This document shows, piece after piece, positions 3,037 to 4,122 of a DNA stretch of 64,000 nucleotides. The first letter of the stretch is position 1, and every line of letters begins with the position of its first letter. The DNA comes from the human T2T-CHM13v2.0 reference genome, Homo sapiens. The translations under genes were made by a program, and so were the position numbers. The notes under the pieces were generated by a model. The model worked only from the letters and a program-made list of their open reading frames with translations, did no database searches and was not told the DNA's origin. The DNA lies in contig CP068257.2 of assembly GCA_009914755.4 (NCBI GenBank), positions 39,936,001 through 40,000,000 on the forward strand, in the 5' to 3' direction.

Positions 3037-3677
3037 AGGGACTATTGCAATGGGGAAGAGGGACTATTACAATAGGGACAGGGGACTATTGCAGTGGGGG
3101 AGGAGGACCTACTGCAATGGGCGAGAGAGCTGCTGCAATGGGGGAGGAGGACCATTGCAATGGGGAAGGGAGATTATTACAATCGGGACAGGGGGACTAT
3201 TTCAATAGGGACAGGAGGACTATTGCAATGGGGAAGGGAGATTATTACAATAGGGACAGGGGGACTATTTCAATAGGGACAGGAGGACTATTGCAATGGG
3301 GAAGGGAGATTATTACAATAGGGACAGGGGGACTATTTCAATAGGGACAGGAGGACTATTGCAATGGGGGACAGGGATCATTACAGTAGAGACAGAGGTA
3401 CTATTTCAATGGGGAAGGAGGACTATTGCAATGGAGGAGGAGGACCTATTGCAGTGGGGGATGGGGATTATTACAATAGGGACAAGGGAACTATTTCAAT
3501 GGGAGAGGAGAACTATTTCAACAGAGAAGGAGGACCTATTGCAATGGGGAAGGACGACCTGTTGCAATGGGGGAGGAGGACTATTGCAATGGGGAAGGAG
3601 GACTATTGCAAATGCGAAGGGGGATTATTACAATAGGGACAGGGGGACTATTTCAATGGGGGAGGAGGACTATTTCC
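3037..3677. repeat. Minisatellite, ~22-23-bp unit organised into a 67-bp higher-order unit; proximal block
   Basis: Units gggacaggaggactattgcaat / ggggaagggagattattacaata / gggacagggggactatttcaata. The 67-bp triple unit occurs three times in perfect tandem around 3208-3410. Confidence 0.9.
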
Positions 3678-3990
3678 TTTTTTTTTTTTTTTTTTTTTTT
3701 TTTTTTGAGACGGAGCCTTGCTCTGTTGCCCAGGCTGGACTGCAGTGGCACGATCTCGGCTCACTGCAAGGTCCGCCTCCTGGGTTCAAGCCATAATCCT
3801 GCCTCAGCATCCCAAGTAGCTGGGACTACAGGCACCCACCAGCATGCCCGGCTAATTTTGTTTTGTATTTTTAGTAGAGACGGGGTTTCACCGTGTTAGC
3901 CAGGATGGTCTCCATCTCTGCACCTCGTAATCTGCCCACCTCGGCCTCCCAAAGTGCTGGGATTACAGGCCTGAACTACCGCACCCGGCC
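3678..3990 (-). mobile_element. Alu (S/Y-like) inserted inside the minisatellite, antisense, ~35-nt pure poly-T
   Basis: T35 then gagacggagccttgctctgttgcccaggctggactgcagtgg ... ggattacaggcctgaactaccgcacccggcc. Flanked by aggaggactatttc on both sides (candidate 14-bp TSD, though this is also minisatellite sequence). Confidence 0.9.
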
Positions 3991-4122
3991 CAGGAGGACT
4001 ATTTCAATGGAGGAGGAGGACTTACTGCAAACCGGGAGGGAAGCCATTGCAATGGGGTAGGATATTGTTACAAAGAGGGAAGGAAACTATTGTAATTGGG
4101 AATTACAATTGGGAATTGGAAG
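3991..4122. repeat. Minisatellite, distal block (continuation after the Alu insertion)
   Basis: caggaggactatttcaatggaggaggaggacttactgcaa... the same 22-bp unit family, increasingly degenerate. Confidence 0.8.

What the first reader, a model, noticed from the sequence alone, without database searches (positions are those of the whole stretch)
3037..4122. A 22-bp-unit / 67-bp higher-order minisatellite (~1.1 kb including the insert) bisected by a young-looking Alu with a 35-nt pure poly-T
The array shows three perfectly identical consecutive 67-bp triple units (about 3208-3410), implying recent expansion or conversion. An Alu with an uninterrupted ~35-nt T-tail sits inside the array, flanked by aggaggactatttc on both sides. 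Long pure Alu tails and perfect VNTR units are both signatures of evolutionarily recent, potentially polymorphic structure. G-rich purine units such as GGGGAAGGGAG / GGGACAGGGGGAC could adopt non-B DNA.
Basis: partly seen in the sequence, partly recalled or inferred. Interest (0 to 1): 0.55.

Follow-up and report, generated by a model that had tools for sequence, protein, structure and literature searches.

The report
Old Alu inside an ordinary minisatellite
This is an ordinary non-coding primate minisatellite of about 33 short units, with one recently triplicated 68-bp block, and the Alu inserted near its end is old (about 11% diverged), so nothing here is unusual apart from a long pure 29-base tail that probably varies in length between people.

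Summary
The repeat is real. Tandem Repeats Finder reports periods of 23, 45 and 68 bp over 3038-3676, and about five degenerate units continue after the Alu to roughly 4105. Several details in the finding are off. The higher-order unit is 68 bp, made of three monomer types (22+22+24 bp), not 67. The perfect tract is 3185-3369 (2.7 units), not 3208-3410. The poly-T is 29 nt, not 35. The Alu sits in monomer 30 of about 34, so it is near the 3' end and does not bisect the array.

The Alu (3707-3990, minus strand) is full length. It has a 14-bp target-site duplication (the only two copies of that 14-mer in the 64 kb) and a TTTC/AA nick site, so it is a classical L1-mediated insertion into an existing array.

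It is not young:
- It is 88.7% identical to AluY.
- 15 of its 26 CpGs are lost.
- Non-CpG divergence is 6.1%, which gives an age of about 26-41 Myr.
- Its A and B boxes are mutated.

Only the A29 tail looks young, and slippage after insertion best explains it.

The triplicated block (2 differences in 154 comparisons) is much younger than the Alu and than the other 68-bp copies (79-88% identical). G-quadruplex and other non-B potential is weak. No comparative data could be reached, and the locus was not identified. The feature is ordinary.

The parts
3038..3676 (+). Main (left) part of the minisatellite: 28.4 monomers of 21-24 bp. There are three monomer types: A (..TATTGCAATGGGGAAGG), B (..TATTACAATAGGGACAG) and C (..CTATTTCAATAGGGACAGG). 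They partly form an A-B-C 68-bp higher-order unit. The + strand is G-rich (GC skew 0.51, 68% purine).
   Evidence: TRF periods 23/45/68; lag identities; monomer parse and alignment; composition.
3148..3369 (+). Young triplicated block. It comprises three 68-bp units, H1 (3148-3215), H2 (3216-3283) and H3 (3284-3351), plus 18 bp of the next unit. The tract 3185-3369 is perfectly 68-periodic. H1 differs from H2 at 2 positions, one of them 3184.
   Evidence: Longest exact lag-68 run is 117 bp, 3185-3301 matched to 3253-3369. HOR identity matrix. 2 differences in 154 lag-68 comparisons.
3663..3676 (+). Target-site duplication, copy next to the Alu tail: AGGAGGACTATTTC. It is followed by one extra C at 3677.
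   Evidence: Exact 14-mer is present only twice in the window.
3678..3706 (-). Alu A-tail: 29 uninterrupted A on the minus strand (T29 on the plus strand). It is the longest homopolymer in the window.
   Evidence: It is the longest of 25 Alu tails in the window; the next longest is 18.
3707..3990 (-). Full-length dimeric Alu body, intermediate between AluY and AluSc, 88.7% identical to AluY. One extra G lies 5' of GGCCGGG, corresponding to the plus-strand C at 3991.
   Evidence: blastn against recalled consensus sequences; global alignment and CpG accounting; cross-check against a consensus built from the window's own Alus.
3992..4005 (+). Target-site duplication, copy next to the Alu 5' end: AGGAGGACTATTTC.
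   Evidence: Removing the Alu, the tail, the extra bases and one duplication copy restores a 24-bp C-type monomer in register.
4006..4119 (+). Right remnant of the array. It holds the rest of monomer 30 and monomers 31-34, which are increasingly degenerate, and ends in AATTGGG-like units (4094-4119).
   Evidence: Monomer parse. H7 (4040-4105) is 64-70% identical to the other 68-bp units. TRF row 4094-4119.

Best explanation
This is a non-coding minisatellite in primate (presumably human) DNA that is tens of millions of years old. It has about 33 monomers of 21-24 bp in three sequence types, which partly form a 68-bp A-B-C higher-order unit. The array turns over by replication slippage and unequal exchange. 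The centre was recently homogenised, leaving a near-perfect triplication of the 68-bp unit, while the edges have decayed.

Roughly 26-41 Myr ago an AluY/Sc-type element was inserted by L1 ORF2p target-primed reverse transcription. The nick was at the TTTC/AA site that every C-type monomer offers. The insertion went into monomer 30 and made a 14-bp target-site duplication. The Alu has since aged in place: it has lost CpGs and its Pol III boxes are mutated.

The A29 tail is a mononucleotide microsatellite kept long and pure by slippage. It is not a sign of recent insertion. No function is indicated. The likely consequence is length polymorphism of the tail and possibly of the 68-bp copy number.

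Shown directly: the repeat structure, the insertion anatomy, the Alu divergence, and the relative ages. Inferred: the absolute ages, the slippage origin of the tail, and any polymorphism.
For: Array and higher-order structure:
- TRF periods 23/45/68.
- Lag identity peaks at 68.
- Monomer types follow the order A-B-C at monomers 7-18, 20-22 and 27-29.

Old array with a young centre:
- H1-H3 are 97-100% identical.
- The other 68-bp copies are 79-88% identical, and the post-Alu copy is 64-70%.
- There are 2 differences in 154 lag-68 comparisons, i.e. 1.3% pairwise (95% CI 0.16-4.7%).

Classical TPRT insertion:
- The Alu is full length (query positions 1-281).
- It has an A29 tail.
- The 14-bp duplication is unique to the two flanks. 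The published mean for new Alu inserts is 14.0 +/- 3.0 bp, with target consensus 5'-TTTT/AA-3' (PMC3415434).
- The plus-strand nick site is TATTTC/AATGG. TTTCAA occurs 8 times in the array, only in C-type monomers.
- Excising the insert restores the monomer register.

Old Alu:
- 26 substitutions (12 CpG transitions and 14 others) plus 6 gap columns against AluY, with 11 of 26 CpGs left.
- With the rates used in PMC5402677 (1.5e-9 per site per year for non-CpG, 9e-9 for CpG), 14/228 gives about 41 Myr and 12/52 gives about 26 Myr.
- The A box reads TAGTTCAGGCC (3 changes) and the B box GATGGAGAC (1 change).
- Its divergence is ordinary among the 21 full-length Alus in the window.

Not coding:
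- The period is not a multiple of 3.
- The ORF through the array has no homologue.
Against: - A 29-nt uninterrupted tail is unusual for an old Alu. Tails are reported to become 'smaller and more heterogeneous' with time (PMC3415434), and this is the longest of 25 tails in the window.
- Under simple in-place decay at 6.1%, the chance of two intact 14-bp duplications and 29 unchanged tail bases together is about 3%. That calculation ignores slippage, which can purge interruptions.
- The Alu consensus sequences were recalled from memory. They were only cross-checked against a window-derived consensus (97.5% to recalled AluSx).
- No orthologous or alternative-haplotype sequence could be obtained, so ages and fixation are inferred from divergence alone.
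Confidence: 0.85

Rival explanations
1. One reading: the Alu is an evolutionarily recent, possibly polymorphic insertion. In this reading it was copied from an old, already diverged AluS/Y source, so the body divergence was inherited, and the pure A29 tail and perfect duplications reflect true youth.
For: - The tail is pure and the longest in the window.
- The target-site duplication is a perfect 14/14 match.
- Joint survival of the duplications and the tail under in-place ageing is about 3% if slippage is ignored.
- Polymorphic TPRT-type AluS insertions with 5.2-11.2% divergence have been reported (PMC5402677).
Against: - Those reported recent AluS insertions keep their Pol III A and B boxes and SRP9/14 sites (PMC5402677). 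Here the A box has 3 changes in 11 positions and the B box has lost the central C. A source element carrying these changes would be a poor template.
- More than half of the CpGs have decayed.
- There is no Yb8-type 7-bp duplication. This comparison rests on my memory of the subfamily consensus.
- 77% of polymorphic AluS elements are deletions rather than new insertions (PMC5402677).
Confidence: 0.06
2. The G-rich array is a functional non-B DNA or regulatory element. It would act as a G-quadruplex or hairpin former, or as a transcription-factor platform built on ATTGCAAT palindromes, with copy number tuning a nearby gene in the way the PDYN 68-bp promoter repeat does.
For: - Strong strand asymmetry: GC skew 0.51 and 38 runs of G3 or longer in 639 bp.
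- Nine ATTGCAAT palindromes across the whole array and two 12-bp CCATTGCAATGG palindromes.
- The single-strand DNA fold is better than all 200 shuffles, z = -3.9.
Against: - No canonical G4 motif. Only 3 merged regions appear when loops up to 12 nt are allowed. Mean G4Hunter score is 0.91, and only 14% of 25-nt windows exceed 1.2.
- The fold is only -11.8 kcal/mol for 216 nt.
- The longest polypurine run is 12 nt.
- There is no C/EBP 10-mer, no PRDM9 13-mer and no Jeffreys core.
- The whole 64 kb has no CpG island.
- PDYN genotyping primers are absent from the window.
- The edges of the array decay freely, as expected for neutral sequence.
Confidence: 0.05
3. The array is not locus-specific. 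It would be a copy of a tandem-repeat region carried inside a known interspersed repeat, or a member of a dispersed satellite family.
For: Many human minisatellites derive from transposable elements (general knowledge). The flanks could not be classified because no repeat library was available.
Against: - The monomer occurs nowhere else in the 64-kb window.
- The flanks match other parts of the window only at TG-rich simple repeats, plus one unexamined 98-bp match (79.6% identity) of 5303-5400 to 29221-29315.
- The three public DNA collections and the paper library gave no hit. They hold little or no human DNA, so this says little.
Confidence: 0.12
4. The 166-aa ORF running through the array (3296-3796) encodes a repeat protein.
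For: The ORF exists.
Against: - The periods of 68 and 22-24 bp are not multiples of 3, so the frame rotates from unit to unit.
- The ORF runs on into the poly-T and the antisense Alu.
- No identical product is on record, and no homologue was found at E <= 0.001.
Confidence: 0.01

Closest known systems
Human minisatellites/VNTRs with higher-order (compound) repeat structure
   Same: Head-to-tail units of 21-24 bp. Monomer variants recur in a fixed order to give a 68-bp super-unit. The centre of the array is homogenised and the edges are decayed. The sequence is G-rich with strand asymmetry.
   Different: Variability between individuals, which is the defining 'V' in VNTR, could not be tested. 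The array lacks the classical hypervariable-minisatellite core GGGCAGGANG and the PRDM9 13-mer.
Fixed, old AluY/AluSc-type SINE insertions made by L1 ORF2p (TPRT)
   Same: Full-length dimeric body, A-rich linker, poly-A tail, 14-bp target-site duplication, TTTC/AA nick site, heavy CpG decay, and about 11% divergence.
   Different: The tail is longer and purer (A29) than any other Alu tail in the window. The exact subfamily was not assigned with a curated library.
Young polymorphic Alus (AluYa5/Yb8 class), and the rare polymorphic AluS TPRT insertions of PMC5402677
   Same: A long homogeneous A-tail and a perfect target-site duplication.
   Different: The body is about 11% diverged, more than half of the CpGs are lost, and the A and B boxes are mutated. 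The published recent AluS insertions keep these boxes.
PDYN promoter 68-bp VNTR
   Same: A 68-bp unit present in about three near-identical tandem copies.
   Different: It is a different sequence. The published genotyping primers are absent from the window. The unit has no TGACTTA AP-1-like site. Here the 68-bp unit is part of a longer array of 22-24-bp monomers.

Membership tests
Minisatellite / VNTR | Head-to-tail tandem copies of a 10-100 bp unit, far beyond chance | tested here: met
   TRF periods 23/45/68, 28.4 monomer copies, scores 480-596. 13 probe hits against 0.02 expected.
Minisatellite / VNTR | Copy number varies among individuals | not testable with these tools
   No human haplotype collection was available. 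Scans of three DNA collections found no copy of the monomer.
Higher-order repeat organisation | Distinct monomer types recur in a fixed order, and super-unit copies are more alike than neighbouring monomers | tested here: met
   A-B-C order at monomers 7-18, 20-22 and 27-29. Lag identity is 0.63 at 68, against 0.54-0.57 at 22/23. The structure is irregular outside the central block, where runs of A-type monomers occur.
Alu SINE inserted by L1-mediated TPRT | A dimeric body of about 280 bp homologous to the Alu consensus | tested here: met
   Query positions 1-281 aligned at 88.7% to AluY. The consensus was recalled from memory and cross-checked against a window-derived consensus.
Alu SINE inserted by L1-mediated TPRT | A 3' poly-A tail and flanking target-site duplication of 5-27 bp | tested here: met
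   A29 tail. The 14-bp duplication is found only at the two flanks. The size range comes from PMC3415434.
Alu SINE inserted by L1-mediated TPRT | An L1 endonuclease-like target, 5'-TTTT/AA-3' | tested here: met
   The empty site reads CTATTTC/AATGG on the plus strand, one mismatch from the consensus.
Young / potentially polymorphic Alu | Low divergence from the subfamily consensus, with CpGs largely intact | tested here: not met
   11.3% divergence, 11 of 26 CpGs left, 6.1% non-CpG divergence.
Young / potentially polymorphic Alu | Intact Pol III A and B boxes, as in recent insertions (PMC5402677) | tested here: not met
   The A box has 3 of 11 positions changed and the B box 1 of 9. The box consensus sequences are from memory.
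Young / potentially polymorphic Alu | A long homogeneous A-tail | tested here: met
   A29 with no interruption, the longest of 25 tails in the window.
Young / potentially polymorphic Alu | Absence from orthologous sites in other primates, or presence/absence variation in humans | not testable with these tools
   No primate or human haplotype sequence was reachable.
G-quadruplex-forming repeat | Canonical G3+N1-7 x4 motif, or a G4Hunter score above about 1.2-1.5 | tested here: not met
   No canonical motif in the array. Mean G4Hunter score 0.91, maximum 1.68, 14% of windows above 1.2. Only long-loop (up to 12 nt) candidates appear, in 3 spots.
Classical hypervariable minisatellite (Jeffreys core / PRDM9 hotspot motif) | Core GGGCAGGANG or CCNCCNTNNCCNC present in the units | tested here: not met
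   No match to either in 3038-4122. Only a one-base-longer look-alike, GGGACAGGNGG, occurs 7 times.
PDYN 68-bp promoter VNTR | Flanked by the published genotyping primers, with a TGACTTA site in each unit | tested here: not met
   The primers from PMC5991531 are absent at up to 3 mismatches. There is no TGACTTA in the array.

The most novel reading that the evidence does not exclude
The Alu is in fact a recent, human-specific or still polymorphic insertion, or a deletion polymorphism produced by exchange between the homologous monomers on either side of it. In that case the A29 tail and the perfect duplications reflect real youth and the body divergence was inherited from an old source element. 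Together with a copy-number-variable 68-bp block, this would make the locus a compound structural polymorphism.
Probability: 0.06. Interest if true: 0.3.

Novelty: already known. Interest (0 to 1): 0.1.

Why it matters
It matters little. Minisatellites interrupted by fixed Alus are common in primate genomes, and this one shows no coding, regulatory or strong structural signal.

Its modest value is as a worked example. An Alu insertion can time-stamp a tandem array: the array is older than the Alu and the central triplication is much younger. It also shows that a long pure A-tail alone is not a reliable sign of a young Alu.

If the tail or the 68-bp block varies in length, the locus could serve as a marker. 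It may also cause trouble for short-read alignment.

Tried and rejected
1. Finding other haplotypes or orthologues:
- An exact 21-mer of the monomer was scanned in genome contigs, metagenome contigs and viral contigs and gave 0 hits in each.
- Exact look-up of the two ORFs that cross the array found nothing on record.
- A protein homology search with the array translation found nothing at E <= 0.001.
- No comparative data could therefore be obtained.

2. Literature search for four 16-17-mers of the repeat found 0 papers.

3. The PDYN 68-bp promoter VNTR was considered because of the 68-bp period and the three or so copies. It was rejected: the primers are absent, the window has no YGGF[LM] ORF, and the unit has no AP-1-like site.

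4. Locus identification:
- The window has no CpG island.
- Rfam at gathering thresholds gives only a snoU13-like hit.
- ORFs of 110 aa or more, and 385 filtered stop-to-stop ORFs, look non-coding by eye.
- I ran no further search on this, so the locus remains unidentified.

5. Motif and structure checks:
- PRDM9, Jeffreys core and C/EBP motifs are absent.
- G4, triplex and hairpin potential is weak.
- The only inverted repeat of 12 nt or more in 2800-4400 is unrelated to the array.

6. The coding-repeat idea was rejected.

Full report
**What is there**

The window is primate DNA, presumably human. blastn with four Alu consensus sequences finds 29 Alu segments in 64 kb. Overall CpG observed/expected is 0.26 and there is no CpG island.

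Tandem Repeats Finder reports a single array at 3038-3676 with nested periods of 23 bp (28.4 copies, 74% matches), 45 bp and 68 bp (9.5 copies, 79% matches), with scores of 480-596. A 21-nt monomer probe hits 13 times at up to 3 mismatches, all between 3039 and 4016, against 0.02 expected by chance.

Splitting the sequence on the conserved T(G/A/T)CAAT core gives about 33 monomers of 21-24 bp. They fall into three types:
- A: AGGACTATTGCAATGGGGAAGG
- B: GAGATTATTACAATAGGGACAG
- C: GGGGACTATTTCAATAGGGACAGG

The order along the array is A B A A A A B C | A B C | A B C | A B C | A A B C C A A A A B C C A A B ?. A 68-bp A-B-C super-unit (22+22+24 bp) therefore exists but is irregular outside the centre. 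Self-identity peaks at a lag of 68 (0.63), against 0.54-0.57 at lags of 22-23.

**Corrections to the finding**
- The higher-order period is 68 bp, not 67.
- The longest exact lag-68 run is 117 bp, matching 3185-3301 to 3253-3369. The perfectly periodic tract is therefore 3185-3369, or 2.7 units.
- H2 (3216-3283) and H3 (3284-3351) are identical. H1 (3148-3215) differs from them at two positions. The next unit, H4 (3352-3418), is only 84% identical. The stated range of 3208-3410 is therefore shifted and too long.
- The T run is 29 nt (3678-3706), not about 35.
- The Alu lies in monomer 30 of about 34. About 640 bp of array lie to its left and about 100-115 bp to its right. It does not bisect the array.

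**The Alu insertion**

The Alu body is 3707-3990 on the minus strand and is full length, covering consensus positions 1-281. The 14-mer AGGAGGACTATTTC occurs exactly twice in the window, at 3663-3676 and 3992-4005, directly flanking the element. One extra C (3677) separates the left copy from the tail. One extra base (3991) precedes GGCCGGG at the Alu 5' end.

Because the flanks are themselves repeats, I checked that this is a true target-site duplication and not simply array periodicity. Removing the Alu, the tail, the two extra bases and one 14-mer copy restores a 24-bp C-type monomer, GAGGACTATTTC|AATGGAGGAGGA, in register with its neighbours. Keeping both copies would leave a truncated 16-bp unit.

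The reconstructed empty site reads CTATTTC/AATGG on the plus strand. That is one mismatch from the L1 endonuclease consensus 5'-TTTT/AA-3'. The 14-bp duplication equals the mean reported for new Alu inserts, 14.0 +/- 3.0 bp (PMC3415434). TTTCAA occurs eight times in the array, once in each C-type monomer except number 18 (TTTCAA at 3404), so the array offers a repeated target. This is a classical TPRT insertion into an array that already existed.

**Age of the Alu**

Against AluY the element has 26 substitutions and 6 gap columns over 280 aligned positions. Twelve substitutions are CpG transitions and 14 are other changes. Only 11 of 26 CpGs remain, and non-CpG divergence is 6.1%. It is slightly closer to AluY (88.7%) than to AluSc (88.0%) or AluSx (86.0%). 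By eye it mixes Y-type right-arm positions with Sc-type CCTGGCTAACACGG in the left arm.

My consensus sequences were recalled from memory. As a check, a majority consensus of the window's own 21 full-length Alus is 97.5% identical to my AluSx, and the focal element is 86.8% identical to that consensus.

Using the method and rates in PMC5402677, 14/228 non-CpG changes give about 41 Myr and 12/52 CpG changes give about 26 Myr. The Pol III A box reads TAGTTCAGGCC (three changes) and the B box reads GATGGAGAC (central C lost) (box consensus sequences from memory). Its divergence is ordinary among its neighbours. Another element at 7368-7655 is clearly younger, at 94% to AluY with 23 CpGs left. 'Young-looking' is therefore not supported for the body.

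**The tail**

A29 with no interruption is the longest of the 25 Alu tails measured in the window; the next longest is 18. [quoted passage not shown]

If one ignores slippage, the chance that 28 duplication bases and 29 tail bases all escape substitution at 6.1% is about 3%. I take this as a sign that the tail has been reshaped by slippage, through expansion of a pure segment and loss of interruptions, rather than as evidence of youth. A source element with the observed A and B box damage would be a poor template. The rare recent AluS insertions that are known keep those boxes (PMC5402677).

That same paper reports polymorphic AluS elements with 5.2-11.2% divergence, most of them deletion alleles. 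Presence/absence variation therefore cannot be excluded. Exchange between the homologous monomers on either side of the Alu would be one route to such variation. I give the young or polymorphic reading about 6%.

**Relative timing inside the array**

Identity between 68-bp units is 97-100% for H1-H3, 79-88% for the other copies left of the Alu, and 64-70% for the copy right of it. The old copies are at least as diverged from each other as expected for sequence of the Alu's age, which fits an array older than the insertion.

H1-H3 show 2 differences in 154 lag-68 comparisons, or 1.3% pairwise (95% CI 0.16-4.7%). Per lineage that is about one tenth of the Alu's non-CpG divergence, so this block dates to a few million years ago with a wide interval. 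Whether the block is polymorphic today is untested.

**Function and structure**

No evidence of function was found:
- The ORFs through the array are by-products of a G-rich, stop-poor sequence. The periods are not multiples of 3, the 166-aa ORF runs on into the poly-T and the antisense Alu, and no identical or homologous protein exists in the collection.
- The array has no canonical G-quadruplex motif. Only three long-loop candidates appear. Mean G4Hunter score is 0.91, and 14% of windows exceed 1.2.
- The longest polypurine run is 12 nt.
- The 216-nt core folds as single-stranded DNA at only -11.8 kcal/mol, although that is better than the shuffles (z = -3.9) because of ATTGCAAT palindromes.
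- There is no PRDM9 13-mer, Jeffreys core or C/EBP 10-mer.

The well-known PDYN 68-bp promoter VNTR was considered and excluded.

**Limits**

No human haplotypes or primate orthologues could be reached. The locus was not identified. No curated repeat library was available, so the Alu subfamily and any transposable-element origin of the array remain open.

**Verdict**

This is a real but ordinary feature: an old minisatellite with a recently homogenised 68-bp core and an old, classically inserted Alu whose only unusual trait is a long pure tail. Interest is low.

Noticed in passing
window 37329-38567: A degenerate AC-rich array of about 1.24 kb (TRF periods 2, 9, 11 and 47; 61-66% matches). It produces very long spurious ORFs, up to 471 aa of H/T-rich or C/V-rich sequence, on both strands.
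   Followed up: no
window 20559-20768: An (ATGG)n tetranucleotide microsatellite with 52.5 copies at 90% matches and no indels. It is long enough to be a likely length-polymorphic marker.
   Followed up: no
window 57411-57614 and 57619-57716: A (TTTC)n array of about 51 copies lies directly next to the only Rfam gathering-level hit in the window: snoU13 on the minus strand, 50 bits against a threshold of 46, over the full model length. It is probably one of the many snoU13-like pseudogene hits in primate genomes.
   Followed up: no
window 7368-7655 (minus strand): The youngest-looking Alu body in the window: 94% identical to AluY, with 23 CpGs retained. Its tail is shorter and interrupted (A7 G A16). 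In this window, tail purity and body age do not track each other.
   Followed up: partly
window 2583-2724: A TG-rich compound microsatellite of (TGTCTG)n type lies about 300 bp upstream of the minisatellite, so two unrelated tandem arrays sit close together.
   Followed up: no
window 3152-3163 and 4044-4055: Two perfect 12-bp palindromes, CCATTGCAATGG, lie inside A-type monomers. The 8-bp palindrome ATTGCAAT occurs 9 times in the array. No matching transcription-factor consensus that I tested fits it.
   Followed up: partly
window 3730-3760 (Alu consensus position about 248): The focal Alu reads CACTGCAGTCC where AluY has CACTGCACTCC. From memory, this change is shared with the AluYb lineage, but the Yb8 7-bp duplication is absent. 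It is probably coincidence.
   Followed up: no
window 39530-41061 (minus strand): By eye, ORFs here look like L1 ORF1p and the start of ORF2p (for example ...QARRDWGPICSLLKQNNYQPRILYPAKLSFINEGKI...), suggesting an L1 fragment. This was not tested against a library.
   Followed up: no
window 55775-55853: A 39-bp G-rich unit is duplicated in tandem: 2.0 copies at 97% identity.
   Followed up: no
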